Source: a virus
IMG/VR virus record: IMGVR_UViG_3300045988_016114
Span: 1 to 37,496 of that record
Length of the DNA: 37,496 nucleotides
Reading direction: 5' to 3' (one strand)
This document shows, one piece after another, positions 735 through 29,945 of this stretch. The notes under the pieces are model-generated. The model worked only from the letters and a program-made list of their open reading frames with translations, was not told the origin of the DNA and searched no databases. Within the stretch, counting starts at the first letter, position 1. Every line of letters begins with the position of its first letter. A program made the translations under genes and the position numbers.

Positions 735-1484
735 CTACGCCGCCTTACTCAGAAACTTATTAATAAAGTACTGCTGCCCTTTTCCAGTCACTTTCGGAGT
801 GCGTGAAATCTTATTACAGCCATTTCCATCAATATGTACTGACTCTTTGATCTCAAACAGCCCCATGTCCATACTCTTCTGTGTTGGTAAGTTCCAATCA
901 CTGCCCTTCCTTTTAATCAGGTAGCCATTTTCACGCATCCATCCAAATAACCTCTGCGCTCCGATGTCTACGCCATTCTGGCGTAAGATTTTGGCTAAAT
1001 CTCCGACAAGGATAGATGTATTCGCTGTTGTGATAGCTTGTCCTAAGATTGCGTGTGGCTTCATCTCCTCGATCTGCGCTGTCTGCTCTTTGATGGTCTT
1101 CTGGGCTTCTAATACTGCCAGAGCAAGGAGTTCTTTGCCTTGCGGCTGTTTCATGTCGTAACCACCAGTCTTTCTAATAGATGGAAGAACTTCACTTGTC
1201 ACCCAGTGCTTAAATCTTTTTGCGGATTCTAGCTTACTGCCGAAGATGAGGGCGTATAAGCCGGATTCTGAAATGATCGGTGTTTTCTGCATCCTTCCGA
1301 TGGAGTCCTGAATCGGGATTTCATCTTTATCCTCCGAATCAACATGGTCCTGAATAGCTTTCGTTGCCCTTTCATATCCAAGTGATGTTGCCACATCTTT
1401 CCCCACAAACCACGGTTCATTGTCAATAGTTACTGTTCGGATGTTACCGAACTCTTCGTTGTTAAAAATCTGTAATTCGTTCAT
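735..1484 (-). CDS. ant: Phage antirepressor (Bro-N plus KilAC/ANT domains)
   Basis: N-terminal Bro-N motif FGNIRTVTIDNEPWFVGKDVATSLGY. C-terminal KilAC-type segment LVGDLAKILRQNGVDIGAQRLFGWMRENGYL. Confidence 0.9.
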   Translation of the reverse strand: MNELQIFNNEEFGNIRTVTIDNEPWFVGKDVATSLGYERATKAIQDHVDSEDKDEIPIQDSIGRMQKTPIISESGLYALIFGSKLESAKRFKHWVTSEVLPSIRKTGGYDMKQPQGKELLALAVLEAQKTIKEQTAQIEEMKPHAILGQAITTANTSILVGDLAKILRQNGVDIGAQRLFGWMRENGYLIKRKGSDWNLPTQKSMDMGLFEIKESVHIDGNGCNKISRTPKVTGKGQQYFINKFLSKAA

Positions 1485-2121: not shown

Positions 2122-2150
2122 ACATATTGTCAGGAGGTGATAATTTGGAA

Positions 2151-2525
2151 ATGTATGAGAGGATAAAGCTCCTCCGAACCGAACAATTACATATGACACA
2201 AACCGAATTTGGAGAAGCTCTCGGAGTAAAACGGGATGTTATAAATAATATTGAAAATAATCGTTTGAAGAATCCGGAAAAGCAAGAACCGATTTATAGG
2301 TTGATGTGTGAAAAATTCAACGTAAGCGACGAATGGCTCCGAACTGGAGAAGGCGAGATGTTTGTTCCGTTAACAAAGAATCAGGTAATTACAGAATTTG
2401 CAGCTGATCTAGTAATGGAAGATAATACATTTAAGAAGCGTCTTTTTGAGGCACTAGCCAAACTTAATGAAAGCGAGTGGGAGGTTCTGGAAAAGCTGGC
2501 TAACAGCTTAATAAAAAAGGACTAG
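2151..2525 (+). CDS. cI-like XRE-family repressor without a peptidase domain
   Basis: HTH LHMTQTEFGEALGVKRDVINNIENNR, then NVSDEWLRTGEGEMF and a helical C-terminal domain. No S24 Ser/Lys motif seen. Start is ATG 2151 or TTG 2145, after GGAGG at 2133-2137. Confidence 0.8.
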   Translation: MYERIKLLRTEQLHMTQTEFGEALGVKRDVINNIENNRLKNPEKQEPIYRLMCEKFNVSDEWLRTGEGEMFVPLTKNQVITEFAADLVMEDNTFKKRLFEALAKLNESEWEVLEKLANSLIKKD

Positions 2526-2736: not shown

Positions 2737-2832
2737 GTTTTTTAAAGGAAAATTTTTCCTTTCTATATAAGTAAACAAAGCAACGTGGGAAAACTTATGC
2801 GAAACATGAAAATCGTCCCAGATCTGGGACAC

Positions 2833-3167: not shown

Positions 3168-4190
3168 ATGGGATTTCGTTTCAGAAAAAGTTTTAAAATT
3201 GCTCCCGGTGTAAAATTTAATCTTAATAAGAAAAGCCATAGCTTTACGTTTGGTGGCAAAGGAATGCATTACACTGTTAATTCCGATGGAAAGCGCACCA
3301 AAAGCTTCGGGATTCCAGGGAGCGGACTGTATTACACAGAAACCAAAAACGGAAAAACTAAAGAAAAGAAGGGGGAAACAATGAGAAAAACAACAAAACA
3401 AAGCGGAGGAGGATGTCTCGGGCTTATCGTCTTACTGATAATGCTATCTGTTGCACTCGCTGCATACTCTCTTTTTTGGATACCTGCTATACCAGTTTTG
3501 ATATACTTCCTTGTGTCCAAAAAATTCCGCGCGTATAGAGTCAGGAATACTGCAATATGCTCAGCTGTGATCATAACATCTCTGATAGTATTTATATGGC
3601 TGAGATCTCCGTCTGAATTGAACTCTATATCCGTAGAATGGGGAAAAGAAGAATTTAATATAGGAGATGTTACAGAGGTAAAAATCACTCCAAGCCCATC
3701 AGATGCAGAAATTGAAACTCTTGAACTATCTGAAAATAACATCGCAACCCTTAAATTTGAGGATGGAAAAGCAATCGTTACATTTGAAAATTCCGGAGAT
3801 GCAGTGCTATTTTTCACAGCAAACAACGATGTCAAAAGTATCTCGAAAACTATTACCGTTATAAACCCAGAAGAAGAAGCGAGATTAAAAGCTAAGGAAG
3901 AAGAACAGATACGTTTGGAACAAGAGGCACAAGCTGCCGAACAAGCAAGAATCGAACAGGAACAAGCTGCTGCCGAGCAGGAAAGAATCGCACAAGAGCA
4001 GGCTGCTGCACAAGCAGCACAAGAACAGGCTACACAACAAAGCCAAGAAGATCCTATTGTATATGTAACAAATACCGGCGCTAAATACCATAGATCCGGA
4101 TGCAGAACTTTAAAATCACAAATAGAAAAACATTTGTCCGAGGTTCGCGGTTACTACGAACCTTGCGGAATTTGCAACCCTCCGCAATAA
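3168..4190 (+). CDS. DUF4236-type membrane protein with coiled coil and C-terminal Cys motif (moron candidate)
   Basis: N-terminus MGFRFRKSFKIAPGVKFNLNKKSHSFTFG is DUF4236-like. Two or three hydrophobic spans. Q/E/A-rich coiled coil EQEAQAAEQARIEQEQAAAEQERIAQEQ. C-terminus GAKYHRSGCRTLK...YEPCGICNP. Confidence 0.75.
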   Translation: MGFRFRKSFKIAPGVKFNLNKKSHSFTFGGKGMHYTVNSDGKRTKSFGIPGSGLYYTETKNGKTKEKKGETMRKTTKQSGGGCLGLIVLLIMLSVALAAYSLFWIPAIPVLIYFLVSKKFRAYRVRNTAICSAVIITSLIVFIWLRSPSELNSISVEWGKEEFNIGDVTEVKITPSPSDAEIETLELSENNIATLKFEDGKAIVTFENSGDAVLFFTANNDVKSISKTITVINPEEEARLKAKEEEQIRLEQEAQAAEQARIEQEQAAAEQERIAQEQAAAQAAQEQATQQSQEDPIVYVTNTGAKYHRSGCRTLKSQIEKHLSEVRGYYEPCGICNPPQ

Positions 4191-4356: not shown

Positions 4357-5508
4357 ATGCCAAAGAGAAAGAAACACCCCAAATTACCAAATGGATATGG
4401 CTCCATTAAATATCTCGGAAAAAACCGCCGGAATCCTTATGCCGTGCATCCACCAGTTACCGACTACACAGATGAGGGAGTCCCGATCACACCAAAAGCC
4501 CTATGCTATGTAGATGACTGGATGAAAGGATTTATCGTCTTAACATCATATAAAGCTGGCACATACACGAAAGGAGACGAAAGGGATATAATCTTACCTA
4601 TCGATCAGAAAAGCCTTGAAATCATCGCACAGCGCTTGCTGTCTGACTATAACAAAGCACAGGGGATTGCAGAAGAAGAAAACGCGCCAGAAAAGACTTT
4701 TGCAGAAGTGTATAAGGAGTTTTGGAAGTATAAATTTGAAAATGAAAAAGGAAAGAAATTATCTGAATCAAGCAAACGTTCGATTCAGGCAGCCTTTAAA
4801 AATGCCAAAACTCTGCACGACCGCCCATTTAGGGAACTGAGACACGATGATCTGCAATCCGTTGTAGATAACTGCCCTCTAAAACACTCCTCTTTGGAGC
4901 TGATCGTGCATCTATTCCGGCAAATGTATGCTTATGCGGACATCTATGAATTATGTGATAAAGACTACTCTACGCATATTAAAATCAACAAGGAGGATGA
5001 CGATGAATCCGGTGTGCCATTTACTAATAACGACCTTAAAATCTTATGGAATAACAAAGACGATGAAATTGTAGAATTTATCTTGATTATGTGTTATTCC
5101 GGATTCCGGATCCGTGCGTATAAAAACTTAGAGATCAACCTAAAAGAGACATATTTTAAGGGTGGCATAAAAACGAAAGCCAGCAAAGACCGCATTGTCC
5201 CAATCCACTCCGCCATATTTCCTCTTGTCAAACGCAGGCTAAAAGCAAACGGCATATTCCCGAATGCGTACAGCAGCTTTTTAAAAGATATGTCAAATAA
5301 ATTATCGGAATTAGGAATTGAAAAGCACACCCCTCACGACTGTCGACACACATTTTCGGCTCTTTGCGAGAAATACGGTGTAAATGAAAATGACCGTAAG
5401 AGAATGATGGGACATAGCTTTGGGAATGATATTACAAACGCAAAGTATGGTCACCGCACCATTGAAGATCTAAGAAAAGAAATCGAAAAGATAAAAGTTT
5501 GTTACTAA
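4357..5508 (+). CDS. int: Tyrosine integrase (phage integrase family)
   Basis: C-terminal catalytic motifs HDCRHTF (H-x-x-R), MMGHS and YGHRT (Tyr). RBS AAAGGAG. Confidence 0.92.
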   Translation: MPKRKKHPKLPNGYGSIKYLGKNRRNPYAVHPPVTDYTDEGVPITPKALCYVDDWMKGFIVLTSYKAGTYTKGDERDIILPIDQKSLEIIAQRLLSDYNKAQGIAEEENAPEKTFAEVYKEFWKYKFENEKGKKLSESSKRSIQAAFKNAKTLHDRPFRELRHDDLQSVVDNCPLKHSSLELIVHLFRQMYAYADIYELCDKDYSTHIKINKEDDDESGVPFTNNDLKILWNNKDDEIVEFILIMCYSGFRIRAYKNLEINLKETYFKGGIKTKASKDRIVPIHSAIFPLVKRRLKANGIFPNAYSSFLKDMSNKLSELGIEKHTPHDCRHTFSALCEKYGVNENDRKRMMGHSFGNDITNAKYGHRTIEDLRKEIEKIKVCY

Positions 5509-5720
5509 TGTGTTACTAACGGAATCGAATTATCTATGTTTTAAGCAGTCCGATATGCACTAACTAAACACTTAAAAAACGGCTTAAAATCAACGTTTTT
5601 CGTTATTTTCGTTGCAATTAAGCCATTCTTCACAATCATGCCAACTTTAAGAAATGTTTAATTTCATATCACGATTTTAGTGGGTTTTCAAGCATTTTTG
5701 TTACTAATGTGTTACTAACG
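5498..5720. repeat. attP-like region bounded by a 24-bp direct repeat (integrase arm-site candidates)
   Basis: TTTGTTACTAATGTGTTACTAACG at 5498-5521 and 5697-5720, each holding two GTTACTAA units. Between them: tandem TTTTCGTT (5597-5604, 5606-5613) and inverted repeat GGCTTAA/TTAAGCC (5581-5587, 5618-5624). Confidence 0.6.
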
Positions 5721-5813
5721 CGTTTAAATTAAGATGATACAATATATCCTTTTCCACTCTCTCTTTGCTTTTTCTAGAGGGTGGAATTTTTATAATTATT
5801 TTCTTTTTTTCTA

Positions 5814-5842
5814 TTGACTTTACGCCAATATTGGCGTATGAT
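5814..5842 (+). promoter_or_regulatory. Cassette promoter with a palindromic operator in the spacer
   Basis: TTGACT (5814-5819), 17 nt, TATGAT (5837-5842). The spacer contains the perfect 14-bp palindrome CGCCAATATTGGCG (5823-5836). Confidence 0.7.
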
Positions 5843-5876
5843 AAGGCCATAAGATAAAGCATAGGAGATACGAAAG

Positions 5877-6341
5877 ATGAAAAAATACAACTTATCAAAC
5901 ATTATGAAAAGAGCATGGAGAATGGTTAAGAAATTAGGATTCGGAATCTCCGAAGCTTTGAAAAAGGCATGGAAGGAAGCGAAAGCAATGAAAGAAGAAA
6001 TCATCAGGATGACTGTTGTGAGAAATGAAATCTTTATAGTAAACACAACAACTGGAGAAATCAGCGGAAAAACTTACAATGCAAAAGAGTGGCTTAAGAA
6101 GAGTTTTGATGCAAAATGGAACAAAGAAACAAGAACTTGGTTTGCGAAACCGGAAGAAATCAAAGAAGAATTGGCAAAATATCCGGGATACTATGAATCA
6201 TACATCGTTAAAGAAAGCGAAGAAGCTGCAGCGATTGAAAACGATGAAATCATCAAAAAAGAACTTGTAAACAGAAATGATGGTTTTTACTCAAAAAACA
6301 CTCACAAATCAGGAAAAATCACATACTCATTTGTGGGCTAA
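5877..6341 (+). CDS. Hypothetical protein, first gene of the plus-strand cassette
   Basis: 154 aa, RBS AGGAG. Amphipathic N-terminus (KRAWRMVKKLGFGISEALKKAWKEAK), then KTYNAKEWLKKSFDAKWNKETRTWF, a Y..K..LK....W....K.W mini-motif. No function recognised. Confidence 0.7.
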   Translation: MKKYNLSNIMKRAWRMVKKLGFGISEALKKAWKEAKAMKEEIIRMTVVRNEIFIVNTTTGEISGKTYNAKEWLKKSFDAKWNKETRTWFAKPEEIKEELAKYPGYYESYIVKESEEAAAIENDEIIKKELVNRNDGFYSKNTHKSGKITYSFVG

Positions 6342-6388
6342 TAACAAAATGCTGACCTACCGGCTATACGGGGAGAAGGAGAAGATCT

Positions 6389-6832
6389 ATGGCAGAACTT
6401 AAAGAACTCAGAAAATTTATGAACCTCACACAGAAAGAGCTTGCTGAAAAAACCGGAATGAACATCCGCCAAATACAGAAGCTCGAAAAGGGCGAAATTG
6501 ACGTTAATAACATTACTGCAAAGAATGCGCAGGCTTTATCTAGTGCTCTTGGGTGCAGCGTCGAGGAAATGTTGACATTAGACCTAAATATCTTTACCGA
6601 GGATGCAAAACAATCCTTGAAAGATGGAGAATTAGATTTGCGCAATCTATTAAGAATGGACAAGTACCAGAAAATAAAAAAACTCAGTAAGATTGGAAGC
6701 TTTGAAAACACCTTTTACGAAAATTACAAATGGATCCCGGAATCTTTGTTTGATAAGTTGACACCGGATGAACTTGCAAATCTCGTAGATAGCTTTTATG
6801 ATTGTTATAGTGCAGGGAAAAATGCAAGATAA
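6389..6832 (+). CDS. Two-domain protein: N-terminal XRE HTH plus unknown C-terminal domain
   Basis: LTQKELAEKTGMNIRQIQKLEKGE is an XRE HTH. About 80 further residues have no recognised domain. RBS GGAGAAGGAG. Confidence 0.8.
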   Translation: MAELKELRKFMNLTQKELAEKTGMNIRQIQKLEKGEIDVNNITAKNAQALSSALGCSVEEMLTLDLNIFTEDAKQSLKDGELDLRNLLRMDKYQKIKKLSKIGSFENTFYENYKWIPESLFDKLTPDELANLVDSFYDCYSAGKNAR

Positions 6833-6847
6833 AAGGAGTTGTTTAAG

Positions 6848-7495
6848 TTGATTGATATGATTGGTAAAAAATTTGGCAAATTAACGGTTATCAAAAAAAC
6901 AAGCGCGACTAAGAATGGGTCTATAGTATGGGAGTGCGAATGTGCTTGTGGAAAAACACGTCTCGCAACATCTAGAGAATTAAATAGCGGTAGCGTAAAA
7001 AGTTGCGGTTGTCTTAGAAAAAAAAGGTATGATTTAGTAGGTCAAAAATTTGGTAAACTAACCGTCATAAAATCAGAAACGCTAGGATCTCATAGGACAT
7101 TTCTCTGCAAATGCGACTGCGGAAATGAAATTTCTGTGCGCGGAGACAGTCTCAGGCGCGGAAAAACAGTGAGTTGTGGTTGTGCAAAAAGTAGCGAATC
7201 AAAAATAAAATCTCTTAAAGCCGGAAGAAAATTGCAAGAACATACTTCTTCTGTTTTTTACCAAGGAACATTATCCAGAAACAATACTACGGGGTTTAAT
7301 GGCATATCTTTTATAAAAGGGAAGTATCGAGCCTCTATAGGTTATAAAAACAAAACATATTATCTGATATCCGATAGTGATATAGAGATTGCGAAATCCG
7401 TAAGAAAAGAGGCTGATGAAGCTGTAAAAAATGGGACATTTGAAGAATGGTTGCAACAATTTAGAAATAATAATAAAACAAAATCACGGAGGTAA
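6848..7495 (+). CDS. Protein with tandem zinc-ribbon repeats and an AP2-like DNA-binding C-terminus
   Basis: Two copies of FGKLTVIK...W/L-C-x-C-x-CG...SCGC. C-terminus GFNGISFIKGKYRASIGYKNKTYYL looks AP2/integrase-DNA-binding-like. The track start (TTG 6839) abuts the RBS, so TTG 6848 or ATG 6857 is more likely. Confidence 0.7.
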   Translation: MIDMIGKKFGKLTVIKKTSATKNGSIVWECECACGKTRLATSRELNSGSVKSCGCLRKKRYDLVGQKFGKLTVIKSETLGSHRTFLCKCDCGNEISVRGDSLRRGKTVSCGCAKSSESKIKSLKAGRKLQEHTSSVFYQGTLSRNNTTGFNGISFIKGKYRASIGYKNKTYYLISDSDIEIAKSVRKEADEAVKNGTFEEWLQQFRNNNKTKSRR

Positions 7496-7499
7496 TAAA

Positions 7500-7754
7500 A
7501 TGCAAAGAAATATTGTTGATTTATTTGAGGACGCGCTGTCTTCTGAAGACTACCGATTTAAAATTTCTTTTTTAGTTGGCGGTTTAGTATCTTACGAATC
7601 GAATGATACGGCTGAAAAGCAAGCTCAATCTACTAAATATCTCGAAGAGATTCTCGATTACATCACGTCTCTCAATGAGAATGATTCTGAAAAAAGCGAA
7701 TTTATCCATCATATCAAAGGGACAATTGAGCGCTATTTGAACTGGGAAGAATAA
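7500..7754 (+). CDS. Hypothetical acidic protein (84 aa), last gene of the cassette
   Basis: ATG 7500 is preceded by GGAGG (7489-7493). The track start at 7431 overlaps the upstream gene and has no RBS. Confidence 0.6.
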   Translation: MQRNIVDLFEDALSSEDYRFKISFLVGGLVSYESNDTAEKQAQSTKYLEEILDYITSLNENDSEKSEFIHHIKGTIERYLNWEE

Positions 7755-7792
7755 CAGTTGCAAAAATCTAAAATTTAAAAAATACAAGATAA

Positions 7793-7817
7793 AAGGATAA
7801 GCATTAAGCTTATCCTT
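7793..7817. terminator. Hairpin terminator at the convergent junction of the cassette and the lysis genes
   Basis: AAGGATAAGC-attaa-GCTTATCCTT, 10-bp stem. T-rich on the minus-strand side. A second 9-bp hairpin, CAATACAGA/TCTGTATTG, lies at 7884-7907. Confidence 0.6.
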
Positions 7818-7937
7818 ATCTAGTAGCAATTAAAGCTACTGTTAATATTTCAATCCGTGAAACTGTGATTTGCTCAGTTTCCGCAATACAGAGCTTCATC
7901 TGTATTGGACACCTTTACCATAGCATATATTCGTGGA

Positions 7938-8843
7938 TTACACAAGTCTAAGCTCAATCGCTTCAATTTTCTTATTCATTCCAATCGTGCCAATCATTCC
8001 GGACGTCCAACGAGTCCAACCAATGTCCTGAATGTGTACTCTGGTCTGCAGTTTCTTTCCTTTCAAGCCCTCGGCGATCAGCTCGATTGCTTCCATCTGC
8101 AAACCTTTCCCGGTTGTACCGATGACTGTATCATGCTTAATATAGCCAAAATCCTTAAGCCCAATATTTTGGATATGAGCACGAGCCTTGATCTTAAAGT
8201 TCAGTTTCCGCATGTCAATCTTGATTGCTTCCAGCGCTCGATTTTGTCCCACAGTTCCGGCAGTACCTCCGTTTACCGCATCCATCCAGCCTTTACCAGA
8301 TACATGCCCTTGATACCACAGCGGAGTTTTTGGCTTCGGTGGCTCTGATGGCTTCGCTGTCTGTTGTTTGATATGAGCCTTGATTCGCTCGATAAAATAT
8401 GCTTTCGTTGACTTCATGCCTCCGTGAATCTCTACTGATCTATGAGGGCAACTTGTTGCGTACACTTCTTGGTGTAATCTGATTGTGTTCTCGTTCGGCG
8501 TAATTCCATACTGGATACATTTGCTTGCAACCAGCTGAAAAGCTTTCTCTTCGTTATGTTTAAATACGTCTAAATCCCCCATGCTCTGACATACTTCTAC
8601 GCTTAAATAGTTTAAATTTCCATCTAAGTTTCCGCAATGCCATGCGCAATTTGAATCATCTTCCGACTGCAAAATATCATCCTGCGCCACATAATAATGC
8701 GCGAAACCATTTTCCAAAGGATGTGTTTGCAGCCAATTCCGATAAAATGCCGCATTCGCATTTTGACTTCCGGCATCGTTGTGGATAAAAATTCCGATTG
8801 GATTTCTTCCTCTATTTCCTGCTACTCCATTACAAATACTCAT
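7938..8843 (-). CDS. Endolysin: N-acetylmuramoyl-L-alanine amidase with three C-terminal ChW repeats
   Basis: Amidase_2-like N-terminus (IFIHNDAGS...AWHCGN...SVEVC...SCPH). Three repeats of Y/R-x-H-V/I-x-x-x-G-W...GT.G....EAI. ATG 8843 after GGAGG. Confidence 0.9.
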   Translation of the reverse strand: MSICNGVAGNRGRNPIGIFIHNDAGSQNANAAFYRNWLQTHPLENGFAHYYVAQDDILQSEDDSNCAWHCGNLDGNLNYLSVEVCQSMGDLDVFKHNEEKAFQLVASKCIQYGITPNENTIRLHQEVYATSCPHRSVEIHGGMKSTKAYFIERIKAHIKQQTAKPSEPPKPKTPLWYQGHVSGKGWMDAVNGGTAGTVGQNRALEAIKIDMRKLNFKIKARAHIQNIGLKDFGYIKHDTVIGTTGKGLQMEAIELIAEGLKGKKLQTRVHIQDIGWTRWTSGMIGTIGMNKKIEAIELRLV

Positions 8844-8904
8844 ATCTCTTCCTCCTTCGAACACAACAAAAGAGAGTCCGAAGACTCCCTTTACTTTTTG
8901 TTAT

Positions 8905-9198
8905 TTATTCATTTTTTCCAAGCTGTTTAATTGTCTGATTGATGTATGTACTCAGACCTGCCACCAAAATGCCTTGCACAATCGCTGTAAATACTGCCAT
9001 CGCAATCTCCTGCCCGGTGCTGATCGGACATGTAGCCAATACCCACACGGCACACAACACAATCCCTGCGCCGCCTAAAATAAGTGGGATGTACTTATCC
9101 TTTACCGCCTGCGCGCTTTTTAATCCCATTCCGATAAAATACAACACTACTGCTACCACCAGCAGCTCCGGCTTTACATAATTCGTAATTTGTTCCAT
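8905..9198 (-). CDS. Holin (Hol44 / holin superfamily V-like, 3 predicted TM helices)
   Basis: 97 aa with three hydrophobic helices. KDKYIPLILGGAGIVL motif. Lies immediately upstream of the endolysin. RBS AGGAGG. Confidence 0.8.
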   Translation of the reverse strand: MEQITNYVKPELLVVAVVLYFIGMGLKSAQAVKDKYIPLILGGAGIVLCAVWVLATCPISTGQEIAMAVFTAIVQGILVAGLSTYINQTIKQLGKNE

Positions 9199-29762: not shown

Positions 29763-29945
29763 ATGTGTGATTATCAAAAATACGAGTCTTACGAAACATT
29801 TCTGTTATATCAAGAATTTCTTTCCATCCCAGACAATCCATTTTCTTTCCAGCTGCCCGAAGGAATGATGATGACCAGTGATATGATACATACATTCCTT
29901 CAGGCTGCTTACAATGCTAAAGGCCTGTCTATTTTGGATTCTTGA
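29763..29945 (+). CDS. Orphan plus-strand hypothetical protein (60 aa)
   Basis: Strong RBS AAGGAGG 8 nt before the ATG. Extended -10 TGtTATAAT at 29717-29725. Opposite orientation to all its neighbours. Confidence 0.55.
   Translation: MCDYQKYESYETFLLYQEFLSIPDNPFSFQLPEGMMMTSDMIHTFLQAAYNAKGLSILDS

What the first reader, a model, noticed from the sequence alone, without database searches (positions are those of the whole stretch)
5814..7817. Self-contained four-gene plus-strand cassette between attP and the lysis genes: candidate anti-defence or immunity operon with acr-aca-like layout
Seen in sequence:
- This is the only multi-gene plus-strand unit outside the integrase region.
- It has its own near-consensus promoter, TTGACT-17-TATGAT. 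The spacer is a perfect 14-bp palindrome, CGCCAATATTGGCG (5823-5836).
- Four tightly packed ORFs follow, each with a GGAG-type RBS. They are a 154-aa unknown; a 147-aa protein with an N-terminal XRE HTH and an unassignable C-domain of about 80 aa; a protein with two FGKLTVI...C-x-C-x-CG...SCGC zinc-ribbon repeats and an AP2-like end; and an 84-aa acidic protein.
- The unit ends at a 10-bp-stem hairpin, convergent with the endolysin gene.

Established knowledge: the slot between the lysin gene and the attachment site is the classical moron position of temperate siphoviruses. Listeria prophage acrIIA loci sit in that slot and are autorepressed through a promoter palindrome by AcrIIA1, a two-domain protein of about 150 aa with an N-terminal HTH.

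Inference: the HTH protein autoregulates the cassette through the palindrome. The three genes with no assignable function could be a new anti-defence, superinfection-exclusion or host-reprogramming system.
Basis: partly seen in the sequence, partly recalled or inferred. Interest (0 to 1): 0.75.

Follow-up and report, generated by a model that had tools for sequence, protein, structure and literature searches.

The report
Self-repressed accessory operon at prophage end
At one end of a gut-bacterium prophage sits a small operon that very probably switches itself off through its own DNA-binding protein, and whose swappable passenger genes are good but untested candidates for inhibitors of bacterial anti-phage immunity.

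Summary
A near-consensus promoter (TTGACT-17-TATGAT, 5814-5842) carries a perfect 14-bp palindrome in its spacer. Four packed plus-strand genes follow, 165 nt inside the attL junction of a Faecalimonas umbilicata (Lachnospiraceae) prophage and convergent with the endolysin gene.

Related loci show a conserved core with swappable cargo, not a fixed four-gene unit. The core is the promoter, the palindrome and the HTH protein P2. Across about 13 operator variants the palindrome arms change together with the HTH recognition helix, which argues for P2 autorepression.

Gene 1 keeps a 36-aa N-terminal module but carries at least eight different bodies. P3 and P4 come and go. P3 is a nuclease-free Zn-ribbon/AP2-like DNA-binding protein of the kind attached to HNH homing endonucleases.

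P2's C-terminal domain is an undescribed module of about 55 aa, often a stand-alone protein. In Neisseria-type prophages that stand-alone form lies in an operon of the same design holding AcrIIC2 and Aca3 homologues. Another P2-anchored cassette carries a Crn4b ring-nuclease homologue.

The acr-aca-like reading is therefore supported by architecture and association, but no anti-defence activity is shown for this window's genes. Homology to AcrIIA1 is not supported.

The parts
5498..5521 (+). Copy 1 of a 24-bp direct repeat, TTTGTTACTAATGTGTTACTAACG. Probable arm-type integrase site on the int side of attP.
   Evidence: One search finds the repeat family. One search places the core between the two copies. 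The role as an integrase site is inferred.
5640..5650 (.). attP crossover region. Identity with integrated prophage copies begins at about 5647.
   Evidence: One search aligns the window with L051 and L052, where the prophage abuts host genes.
5697..5720 (+). Copy 2 of the 24-bp direct repeat, on the cassette side of attP.
5814..5842 (+). Sigma-70-type promoter, TTGACT-17-TATGAT.
   Evidence: scores it 10 of 12. The promoter and 5'UTR are conserved in more than 30 related loci.
5823..5836 (.). Operator: the perfect palindrome CGCCAATATTGGCG inside the promoter spacer. It is the predicted binding site of a P2 dimer.
   Evidence: Sequence; unique in the window. The arms co-vary with the HTH recognition helix in relatives. 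Binding itself is inferred.
5877..6341 (+). P1, 154 aa, pI 9.5. It has a conserved 36-aa N-terminal helical module, a DUF5710-like segment at about residues 64-100, and a C-terminal beta region.
   Evidence: Function unknown.
6389..6832 (+). P2, 147 aa. Residues 4-60 form an XRE-type HTH and residues 66-147 a conserved helical C-domain. Predicted autorepressor of the operon.
6848..7495 (+). P3, 215 aa, pI 9.9. It has two Zn-ribbon repeats and an AP2-like C-terminus, with no nuclease domain. It is a discrete insertion directly after the P2 stop codon.
   Evidence: It is fused to P2-like proteins in P0240 and P0266.
7500..7754 (+). P4, 84 aa, acidic (pI 4.5). It matches no family and has a narrow distribution, always at the 3' end of the cassette.
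7793..7817 (.). Hairpin with a 10-bp stem between the convergent cassette and the lysin gene. The T-run is on the minus-strand side.
7821..7841 (+). Weaker terminator-like hairpin on the plus strand (7 pairs, then TTAATATTTC).

Best explanation
This is an Aca-type, self-repressed accessory operon. It sits at the attL-proximal end of a temperate siphovirus of Faecalimonas umbilicata (Lachnospiraceae).

Proposed mechanism:
1. A strong constitutive promoter drives the operon.
2. P2, made from the operon, binds as a dimer to the 14-bp palindrome that fills the -35/-10 spacer.
3. Bound P2 excludes RNA polymerase. Expression is therefore a burst on entry followed by a low steady level in the lysogen.

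The other genes are exchangeable cargo:
- P1: a conserved N-module with a variable body.
- P3: a nuclease-free Zn-ribbon/AP2-like DNA-binding protein.
- P4: a small acidic protein.

Their most likely role is to counter host or competitor defences. This follows the pattern of acr-aca loci and of AcrIIA1-type proteins that fuse an HTH to an effector domain.

What is shown and what is inferred:
- Shown: the anatomy, the position, the conservation, the operator/HTH covariation, the cargo turnover, and the presence of known anti-defence homologues in relatives' cassettes.
- Inferred: P2 binding and repression, the timing of expression, and any anti-defence activity of P1, P3, P4 or the P2 C-domain.
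For: 1. Architecture. The palindrome lies exactly in the spacer of the best promoter and is unique in the genome.

2. Covariation of recognition helix and operator:
- NIRQIQK[L/I]EKGE with CGCCAATATTGGCG
- N[L/I]RQIQKYEYGE with CGCCTTATAAGACG or CGCCTTGCAAGGCG
- NIRQIQKYESGE with CGCCTATATAGGCG or CGCCTTTTTAGGCG
- HVRHIQRLETGA with CGACATATATGTCG
- SDRYYRKYEDAE with GGACTATAAAGTCC
Some loci add a second, similar repeat upstream of the -35 hexamer (L062 and L064). This is the IR1/IR2 layout reported for ten Aca families (PMC9410906).

3. Cargo turnover around a constant regulator:
- P1-P2-P3-P4
- P1-P2-P4
- B-type gene 1, a 62-aa gene, then P2, with or without P3-P4
- an acidic 129-aa gene, P2, then seven further genes
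A P2 identical to the window's sits in a different phage backbone (L048).

4. Known anti-defence genes in relatives' cassettes:
- L069 reads 80 aa, stand-alone C-domain, 65 aa, 73 aa, AcrIIC2 homologue (E 8e-52), Aca3 homologue (E 4e-14). It lies between integrase and lysis genes and follows a promoter with a palindrome in its spacer.
- L055 is anchored by a P2 homologue of 61% identity. It carries a Crn4b ring-nuclease homologue (E 1.2e-7, NLTPH motif kept) and an Rv2179c-like exoribonuclease. Phage Crn4b copies are proposed anti-CRISPRs (PMC12830947).

5. Position. AcrIIA22 loci of gut clostridial prophages are likewise hypervariable and always lie at the prophage end by the host junction (PMC8545432).

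6. Several cargo proteins are small and acidic: P4 (pI 4.5), and 62-, 89- and 129-aa proteins (pI 4.1-4.5) in relatives.
Against: - No protein of this window matches a known Acr, anti-defence or defence family. Pfam, PHROGs, NCBIfam and PADLOC gave nothing. PDB sequence searches gave nothing. Foldseek gave nothing.
- P1 and P3 are strongly basic and look like DNA-binding proteins, unlike most Acrs.
- Fusions tie the P2 C-domain to P3-like and P1-body-like domains: P0240 and P0266, P0329, and P0339. This fits a multi-part DNA-binding or regulatory machine at least as well as independent inhibitors.
- The C-domain is more conserved than the HTH and always accompanies an HTH. It could therefore be a regulatory partner rather than an effector.
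- P2 is not a member of a named Aca family. Its best match is Aca3 at E 0.13.
- Guilt by association is indirect, and the Neisseria link rests on the C-domain alone.
- Expression timing and repression are untested.
Confidence: 0.5

Rival explanations
1. The cassette is a regulatory or sensor module, not a set of inhibitors. P1, P2 and P3 form a multi-part DNA-binding machine. The P2 C-domain is a docking or oligomerisation hub. P1's variable body, or P3, is tethered to it. The complex would control phage or host genes, for example a second immunity region, superinfection immunity or host reprogramming. Acr genes in relatives would then be hitch-hikers on a well-regulated expression platform.
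For: - Fusion proteins join these domains. P0240 and P0266 read 3x HTH, C-domain, then 2x Zn-ribbon and AP2, which equals P2 plus P3. P0329 reads C-domain plus the EKQ body of B-type gene 1. P0339 reads C-domain plus a DUF5710-like segment, as in P1.
- The C-domain is fused or adjacent to at least four different HTH types (L024, L026 and L066-70).
- P1 (pI 9.5) and P3 (pI 9.9) are basic.
- P3's repeats are DNA-binding modules of homing-endonuclease families.
- SinR and Stl, which are HTH proteins with a partner-binding domain, are the best full-length fold neighbours of P2, though weakly (TM 0.37-0.52).
Against: - The operator is unique in the phage genome, so no second P2 target is visible.
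- The cargo is highly variable, and small acidic proteins plus AcrIIC2 and Crn4b homologues occur in sister cassettes.
- The stand-alone C-domain occurs next to HTH proteins that lack it (L026 type), so it cannot be merely their dimerisation domain.
- The N-module and the C-domain are not homologous (hhalign probability 1.9%).
Confidence: 0.27
2. The cassette is a prophage-encoded defence, exclusion or addiction module. Examples are a toxin-antitoxin or abortive-infection system with an XRE antitoxin or repressor, or a superinfection-exclusion system. It would protect the lysogen rather than the phage.
For: - It occupies the moron slot at the prophage end.
- It is an autoregulated XRE-HTH operon, as in HigBA-type TA systems. 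Weak HTH-only matches to HigA, HipB, MqsA and C-proteins appear.
- PMC9410906 itself notes the resemblance between Aca and antitoxin proteins.
Against: - No toxin, Abi or defence family was found in any of the four proteins or in eight relatives.
- Gene number ranges from 1 to 9 with free cargo turnover, unlike a fixed TA pair.
- Sister cassettes carry counter-defence genes, AcrIIC2 and Crn4b homologues.
Confidence: 0.13
3. Apart from the P2 regulator, the genes are selfish or decaying passengers with no function for the phage. P3 would be a homing-endonuclease remnant that has lost its nuclease, and P1 and P4 would be orphans.
For: - P3 is a clean single-gene insertion right after the P2 stop codon and is absent from near-identical loci (L004 and L005).
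- Its family is very large in phage genomes (at least 599 matches) and includes members with HNH or DUF2726 nuclease domains.
Against: - P3-type proteins of 207-236 aa without a nuclease are the commonest form.
- P3 and P4 stay intact and linked at 71% and 65% identity in other phages.
- The P1 N-module is kept through synonymous changes.
- All the ORFs are intact and have ribosome-binding sites.
Confidence: 0.07

Closest known systems
acr-aca operons (Aca1-Aca10-type autorepressed anti-CRISPR loci; PMC9410906)
   Same: - A near-consensus constitutive promoter with an inverted repeat inside the core promoter, and sometimes a second repeat upstream.
- An HTH_3-type protein encoded in the same operon.
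- Variable small genes around a conserved regulator.
- Prophage location.
- Sister cassettes of this family contain AcrIIC2 plus Aca3 homologues and a Crn4b homologue.
   Different: - P2 is not a member of a named Aca family; its best match is Aca3 at E 0.13.
- The regulator sits in the middle of the operon, not at its 3' end.
- It carries an extra, highly conserved C-domain.
- None of this window's cargo resembles a known Acr.
- Two of the three cargo proteins are basic and look like DNA-binding proteins.
AcrIIA1 of Listeria prophages (bifunctional HTH repressor plus Cas9 inhibitor)
   Same: - A two-domain protein of about 150 aa with an N-terminal XRE HTH and an all-helical C-terminal domain.
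- It is encoded in the locus it is predicted to repress through a promoter palindrome.
- The HTH and the second domain also occur as separate genes in relatives.
   Different: - No sequence similarity: AcrIIA1 is absent from PDB hits at E up to 1 with either the sequence or the profile.
- It is not among the top 50 fold matches.
- The C-domain family is unrelated and has no known target.
Neisseria acrIIC2-aca3 prophage locus
   Same: - Position: integrase, then the cassette, then the convergent lysis genes.
- A palindrome in the promoter spacer (ACCTC-N7-GAGGT).
- It contains a stand-alone 63-aa homologue of the P2 C-domain, and an 80-aa protein with the W-x-G-K-R-x-Y motif seen in several gene-1 bodies.
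   Different: - A different phylum and a different HTH (Aca3).
- The C-domain is not fused to the HTH.
- The window has no AcrIIC2 homologue.
AcrIIA22 hypervariable islands of gut clostridial prophages (PMC8545432)
   Same: - Found in gut Clostridia.
- Always at the prophage end by the host junction.
- Neighbouring genes turn over rapidly among otherwise related prophages.
   Different: - No AcrIIA22 homologue was found among the cargo proteins searched against PDB.
- The paper found no consistently conserved gene other than acrIIA22 at those islands and names no regulator there.
HNH/AP2 homing endonucleases (phrog_374, phrog_99) - for P3 only
   Same: - Repeated FGKLTVI...CxCxCG...SCGC Zn-ribbon modules and an AP2-like C-terminal domain (E 2e-40).
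- Clean single-gene presence/absence polymorphism.
   Different: - No HNH or other nuclease domain in the 215 aa.
- In some relatives the same domains are fused to a multi-HTH, C-domain protein.

Membership tests
acr-aca operon (Aca-regulated anti-defence locus) | An HTH protein is encoded within the operon. | tested here: met
   P2 matches HTH_3 at E 9.6e-13 over residues 4-60.
acr-aca operon (Aca-regulated anti-defence locus) | An inverted repeat (IR1) lies inside a near-consensus core promoter (PMC9410906). | tested here: met
   CGCCAATATTGGCG at 5823-5836 lies in the spacer of TTGACT-17-TATGAT. The same placement is seen in more than 30 relatives, and IR2 is present in L062 and L064.
acr-aca operon (Aca-regulated anti-defence locus) | The HTH protein binds the repeat and represses the operon. 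| not testable with these tools
   Support is indirect only. The operator arms co-vary with the recognition helix in five helix classes, with about 13 operator variants.
acr-aca operon (Aca-regulated anti-defence locus) | At least one operon gene inhibits CRISPR-Cas or another defence. | not testable with these tools
   P1, P3 and P4 have no homology to known inhibitors. Sister cassettes carry AcrIIC2 (E 8e-52) and Crn4b (E 1.2e-7) homologues.
acr-aca operon (Aca-regulated anti-defence locus) | The regulator belongs to a named Aca family. | tested here: not met
   In the PDB profile search the only Aca hit is Aca3 (9VT3) at E 0.13, over the HTH only. Only Aca proteins with solved structures could be tested.
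AcrIIA1 | Sequence or fold similarity to AcrIIA1 (N-terminal HTH and C-terminal Cas9-binding domain). | tested here: not met
   AcrIIA1 is not among PDB hits at E up to 1 with the sequence or the 30-sequence profile. It is not among the top 50 Foldseek PDB hits for a model of pLDDT 82.
AcrIIA1 | A two-domain protein of about 150 aa with an N-terminal HTH, encoded in the locus it regulates. | tested here: met
   P2 is 147 aa, with the HTH at residues 4-60 and a helical C-domain at 66-147. This is an analogy of layout only.
Type II toxin-antitoxin with XRE antitoxin | A recognisable toxin partner and a fixed two-gene unit. | tested here: not met
   No toxin family was found in Pfam, NCBIfam or PADLOC. 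The cassette ranges from 1 to 9 genes with free turnover.
HNH homing endonuclease (P3) | An HNH (or other) nuclease domain. | tested here: not met
   Pfam gives no HNH hit at E up to 1. The 215 aa are accounted for by two Zn-ribbon repeats and an AP2-like end. A relative, L099, does have HNH, and L109 and L125 have DUF2726.
HNH homing endonuclease (P3) | The DNA-binding repeat modules of the family. | tested here: met
   phrog_374 matches at E 2.4e-40 in three stretches, and phrog_99 and phrog_4578 match residues 145-196.
AP2 domain (P3 C-terminus) | A Pfam PF00847 match above the gathering score. | tested here: inconclusive
   There is no hit for P3 at E up to 1. Relatives score 20-26 bits against a cut-off of 33.3.
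DUF5710 (P1 residues about 64-100) | A Pfam PF18974 match above the gathering score. | tested here: inconclusive
   P1 scores 18.4 bits against a cut-off of 26.5, E 0.0018. Two DUF5710 phage proteins are among the BFVD fold hits, with probabilities 0.84 and 0.99.
P22 immI-type antirepressor module | An Ant, KilAC or Bro-type antirepressor under its own repressor. | tested here: not met
   P1 has no ANT or Bro-N domain. The phage's Bro-N/KilAC antirepressor is elsewhere, at 735-1484 on the minus strand.

The most novel reading that the evidence does not exclude
The roughly 55-aa C-domain of P2 (KxSKIGxFxxTF...IPxxLxxKLTxxELAxLVDxFYxxYxxG) and the gene-1 family form a previously unrecognised anti-defence or defence-sensing system that crosses phyla. 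The gene-1 family has a fixed 36-aa N-module and at least eight interchangeable bodies. The system would run from Lachnospiraceae siphoviruses to Neisseria siphoviruses and filamentous phages. In this reading the C-domain is either a broad-target inhibitor or the hub on which the polymorphic bodies dock, and P2 is the founding member of a new Aca-like regulator family usable as a guilt-by-association anchor in gut phages.
Probability: 0.25. Interest if true: 0.8.

Novelty: new variant of a known kind. Interest (0 to 1): 0.6.

Why it matters
Few anti-defence genes are known for phages of gut Lachnospiraceae, and discovery there lacks anchors. The evidence here suggests three things.

- P2 and its spacer palindrome mark a portable, self-limiting expression platform that phages load with changing cargo.
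- The P2 C-domain links that platform to a cassette in Neisseria-type prophages that holds AcrIIC2 and Aca3 homologues.
- At least one sister cassette holds a Crn4b ring-nuclease homologue.

If the reading is right, searching for P2 or its C-domain would give a ready list of new inhibitor candidates. These include P4, the 62-, 89-, 108- and 129-aa acidic proteins, and the N-module family. It would also give a new Aca-like repressor with predictable operator specificity.

If the rival reading is right, the locus is a new modular DNA-binding regulatory system of temperate phages. That would also be unknown.

Tried and rejected
- AcrIIA1 homology. PDB sequence and profile searches and Foldseek gave only generic XRE-HTH neighbours. 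Rejected.
- Known families for P1 and P4. Pfam, PHROGs, NCBIfam and PADLOC gave nothing above threshold.
- Fold of P1. The AlphaFold model (pLDDT 76) has no PDB match at E below 0.29. BFVD gave only weak local DUF5710 hits.
- SRA-domain hint for P1 (Pfam E 0.007). The fold search did not support it.
- The C-domain profile matched the variable-lymphocyte-receptor and repebody LRR cap. No matched stretch passed on its own, and the model is all-helical, so I treat it as a motif coincidence (IPxxxFDKLTxL).
- Homology between the P1 N-module and the C-domain. hhalign probability 1.9%. Rejected.
- A second P2 operator elsewhere in the phage. None at up to 2 mismatches.
- RNA element in 5400-8000. 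Only one Rfam match, far below threshold.
- DNA-level relatives among cultured phages. None. A tblastn search found only HTH-level hits in Streptococcus satellites and one 27%-identity 'repressor'.
- All cargo proteins of 13 loci, concatenated and searched against PDB. Only the Crn4b and Rv2179c hits in L055 came up, and no AcrIIA22 or other Acr.
- The genome-collection scan with the alignment failed. The single-sequence scan gave two genomes.
- The palindrome as a statistical oddity in itself. Rejected: 2 observed against about 2.7 expected.


Full report
**What is in the sequence**

- The promoter is TTGACT (5814-5819), a 17-nt spacer, and TATGAT (5837-5842). It is the best promoter-like site in 5400-8000.
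- The last 14 nt of the spacer are the perfect palindrome CGCCAATATTGGCG (5823-5836).
- Four plus-strand ORFs follow, each with an AGGAG/GGAGG site 7-9 nt upstream: P1 5877-6341 (154 aa), P2 6389-6832 (147 aa), P3 and P4 7500-7754 (84 aa).
- The RBS spacing and the public gene calls put the P3 start at TTG 6848, giving 215 aa.
- A hairpin with a 10-bp stem lies at 7793-7817. Its T-run is on the minus-strand side, so it best fits the convergent lysin transcript. A weaker plus-strand hairpin follows at 7821-7841.

A perfect 14-bp palindrome is not unusual by count: the window has 2, and simulations give about 2.7. It occurs only once in the genome even when 2 mismatches are allowed.

**Genomic context**

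The window is a complete, circularly permuted temperate phage.
- Bro-N/KilAC antirepressor, 735-1484 (minus strand).
- CI-like HTH, 2127-2525 (plus strand).
- DUF4236 protein, 3168-4190.
- Tyrosine integrase, 4357-5508.
- Amidase_2/ChW endolysin, 7938-8864 (minus strand).
- Holin, 8905-9198 (minus strand).
- Structural and replication genes on the minus strand beyond that.

Exact-protein look-ups found the same phage in two forms. One is a circular contig of 37.5 kb (L049, L050). The other is integrated, with the cassette abutting host genes (L051, L052, L047, L048). The host is Faecalimonas umbilicata, a member of the Lachnospiraceae.

Alignment with the integrated copies puts the junction at about 5647, which is 165 nt upstream of the -35 hexamer. 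A 24-bp direct repeat (5498-5521 and 5697-5720) flanks this core. The two copies are probably arm-type integrase sites; that is an inference. The cassette therefore occupies the moron slot at one prophage end and reads inward towards the lysis genes.

**The cassette is a conserved core with exchangeable cargo**

IMG/VR holds 40 loci with a P2 relative. Nearly all lie within about 0.5-3 kb of a predicted prophage end and next to a lysin gene. The integrases (tyrosine or serine) and the lysins differ among them.

The constant parts are the promoter, the 5'UTR, the spacer palindrome and P2. The layouts seen are:
- P1-P2-P3-P4 (the window, L002, L047, L049-L053).
- P1-P2-P4 (L004, L005). Here P3 is missing as a clean insertion/deletion directly after the P2 stop codon.
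- B-type gene 1, a 62-aa acidic gene, then P2-P3-P4. This occurs in a different phage backbone with a P2 100% identical to the window's (L048).
- B-type gene 1, with or without the 62-aa gene, then P2 (L006-L022).
- B-type gene 1, a stand-alone C-domain, then a stand-alone HTH (L025-L040).
- A 108-aa acidic gene, a Zn-ribbon-HTH gene, then P3-P4. This uses the same promoter and 5'UTR (L080-L084).
- A 129-aa acidic gene, P2, then seven further genes (L055).
- An 89-aa acidic gene, then P2 (L061).
- P2 alone (L065).
- The same unit co-directional with the lysis genes (L062).

**P2 as autorepressor: covariation evidence**

The palindrome keeps its exact position, 3 nt after the -35 hexamer and abutting the -10 hexamer. 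Its sequence changes, and the changes track the HTH recognition helix.

| Recognition helix | Operator |
|---|---|
| NIRQIQK[L/I]EKGE | CGCCAATATTGGCG |
| N[L/I]RQIQKYEYGE | CGCCTTATAAGACG, CGCCTTGCAAGGCG |
| NIRQIQKYESGE | CGCCTATATAGGCG, CGCCTTTTTAGGCG |
| HVRHIQRLETGA | CGACATATATGTCG |
| SDRYYRKYEDAE | GGACTATAAAGTCC |

- L024 has a different small HTH and a different palindrome, ACGCAaTGCGT.
- L062 and L064 add a second, similar repeat just upstream of the -35 hexamer.
- The multi-HTH fusion locus L071 has ATACTTG-N2-CAAGTAT in its spacer.
- The palindrome lies upstream of the transcription start, so it cannot act as an RNA hairpin.

A repeat inside a consensus core promoter (IR1), sometimes with a second repeat (IR2), is the layout reported and reporter-tested for ten Aca families (PMC9410906). 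I conclude that P2 very probably represses its own operon by occluding RNA polymerase. Binding itself is inferred.

**What the proteins are**

*P2.*
- It has an XRE HTH (E 1e-12) followed by an all-helical C-domain. The model has pLDDT 82.
- Fold and sequence searches return only generic XRE neighbours: C-proteins, P22 C2, SinR, Stl and HigA.
- AcrIIA1 does not appear. The one Aca hit is Aca3 at E 0.13.

*The C-domain.*
- It is more conserved than the HTH.
- An exhaustive profile search finds 147 representative clusters. Its core of about 55 aa is most often a stand-alone protein of 58-70 aa with no Pfam family.
- Elsewhere it is fused, at either end, to at least four kinds of HTH.

*Informative fusions.*
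- P0240 and P0266 read 3x HTH, C-domain, then 2x Zn-ribbon and AP2. That equals P2 plus P3.
- P0329 reads C-domain plus the EKQ-motif body of B-type gene 1.
- P0339 reads C-domain plus a DUF5710-like segment like that of P1.

*P1.*
- It has a 36-aa N-terminal helical module, MKKYNLSxIMKRAWxxVKKxGxxISEALKKAWKEAK. The module is kept through synonymous changes.
- The module is joined to at least eight unrelated bodies across homologues.
- It resembles the N-terminus of Phage_Gp111 and phrog_8305 only weakly.
- The body of P1 has a sub-threshold DUF5710 match and no fold neighbour in PDB.

*P3.*
- It matches phrog_374, labelled 'HNH endonuclease', at E 2e-40, through its Zn-ribbon repeats.
- It has no nuclease domain.
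- The family is very large in phages (at least 599 matches). Members pair the repeats with AP2 (sub-threshold), HNH or DUF2726.

*P4.*
- It is acidic (pI 4.5), matches no family and has a narrow distribution.
- It stays linked to P3 at 65-71% identity in other phages.

**Links to known anti-defence loci**

Two independent links were found.

1. *Neisseria-type prophages.*
   - The stand-alone C-domain protein P0354 lies in a plus-strand cluster between integrase and the convergent lysis genes.
   - The cluster follows a promoter with ACCTC-N7-GAGGT in its spacer.
   - In L069 the cluster reads 80 aa, C-domain, 65 aa, 73 aa, a 119-aa protein and a 70-aa protein.
   - The 119-aa protein matches AcrIIC2 (PDB 6JD7, E 8e-52). 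The 70-aa protein matches Aca3 (PDB 9VT3, E 4e-14).
   - L068 and L070 lack the AcrIIC2 homologue but keep the rest.
   - A Neisseria filamentous prophage also carries the C-domain and an Aca3-like HTH (L066).

2. *L055.*
   - Its cassette is anchored by a full-length P2 homologue of 61% identity.
   - It holds a 112-aa protein matching the ring nuclease Crn4b (PDB 9R7B, E 1.2e-7, NLTPH motif kept) and an Rv2179c-like exoribonuclease.
   - Phage Crn4b copies are proposed anti-CRISPR or anti-CBASS enzymes (PMC12830947).

In addition, AcrIIA22 loci of gut clostridial prophages are hypervariable and always lie at the prophage end by the host junction (PMC8545432).

**Interpretation and its limits**

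The best-supported reading is an Aca-type, self-limiting expression platform loaded with exchangeable cargo whose likeliest role is counter-defence.
- The regulatory half is well supported. I rate it at about 0.8.
- The anti-defence half rests on architecture and association only. I rate it at about 0.45. None of P1, P3, P4 or the C-domain resembles a known inhibitor.

The main rival is that P1, P2 and P3 form a modular DNA-binding or regulatory machine. The fusions above support it, and so do the basic pI values of P1 and P3. The constant pairing of the C-domain with an HTH also fits. A TA or exclusion module is less likely: no toxin family was found, gene number is variable, and sister cassettes carry counter-defence genes.

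**Comparison with known systems, and novelty**

The locus works like an acr-aca operon, and P2's layout is like that of AcrIIA1. It is not a member of either. No named Aca family and no AcrIIA1 similarity was found, and its own cargo has no demonstrated or homologous inhibitor.

The following appear undescribed. They have no Pfam, NCBIfam or PADLOC model, and the PHROGs matches are weak or annotated 'unknown function'.
- The P2 regulator family with operator covariation.
- The cross-phylum C-domain family.
- The N-module family with polymorphic bodies.

I file the locus as a new variant of a known kind.

Noticed in passing
window 5498-5521 and 5697-5720; junction at about 5647: A 24-bp direct repeat, TTTGTTACTAATGTGTTACTAACG, flanks the point where identity with integrated prophage copies begins. 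The copies are probably arm-type integrase sites on either side of the attP core. The first copy overlaps the 3' end of the integrase gene.
   Followed up: partly
window 5843-5876, and the same region in L006-L064 and L084: The 5'UTR motif CATAAGATAAAG(C/A)AAAGGAG, just downstream of the -10 hexamer, is conserved even in loci where the operator, the HTH and the first gene all differ. Nothing here explains why it is so constant.
   Followed up: no
window 2815-2830: This is the only other perfect palindrome of at least 14 bp in the window: GTCCCAGATCTGGGAC, 16 bp. It lies between the CI-like gene and the DUF4236 gene. In the near-identical contig L050 a 65-aa HTH gene is called on the minus strand next to it.
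   Followed up: no
window 29769-29924 (+): This stretch is a homologue (65% identity over 52 aa) of a small ORF, MEYQIYESYDTFLLYQEF.... In 27 of the loci fetched by then, tblastn finds that ORF; where inspected (L011, L013, L026, L084) it sits divergently just upstream of the cassette promoter. In this phage it is in the early region instead.
   Followed up: partly
L055 4124-4462 and 4595-5161: A P2-anchored cassette from a human-gut contig encodes a Crn4b ring-nuclease homologue (E 1.2e-7 to PDB 9R7B) and an Rv2179c-like 3'-5' exoribonuclease. Together they are a possible pair for degrading cyclic oligoadenylates.
   Followed up: partly
L069 6078-6437 and 6430-6642; L068 4620-4660: Neisseria-type prophage cassettes with AcrIIC2 and Aca3 homologues also carry conserved genes of 80, 63 and 65-67 aa with no described function. 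Their promoter has ACCTC-N7-GAGGT in its spacer.
   Followed up: partly
L066 5001-5192 (Neisseria lactamica filamentous prophage, downstream of zot): The stand-alone C-domain protein and an Aca3-like HTH also occur in a filamentous (Zot/TspB) prophage, next to an IS110-family transposase.
   Followed up: no
P0240 and P0266 (L071 1355-2962): These are single polypeptides of 535-567 aa that join three XRE HTH domains, the C-domain, two P3-type Zn-ribbons and an AP2 domain. In L071 the gene follows a promoter with a palindrome in its spacer and a 59-aa acidic gene.
   Followed up: partly
window 3168-4190 (+): A 340-aa DUF4236 protein is encoded between the CI-like repressor and the integrase, on the lysogeny strand. 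Its function is unknown.
   Followed up: no
P2 residues 109-143 (window about 6713-6817): The segment IPESLFDKLTPDELANLVDSFYDCY gives profile hits (E down to 4.5e-6) to the LRR C-terminal cap of lamprey variable lymphocyte receptors and repebodies. I judge this a motif coincidence because the model is helical and no single stretch passes on its own.
   Followed up: partly
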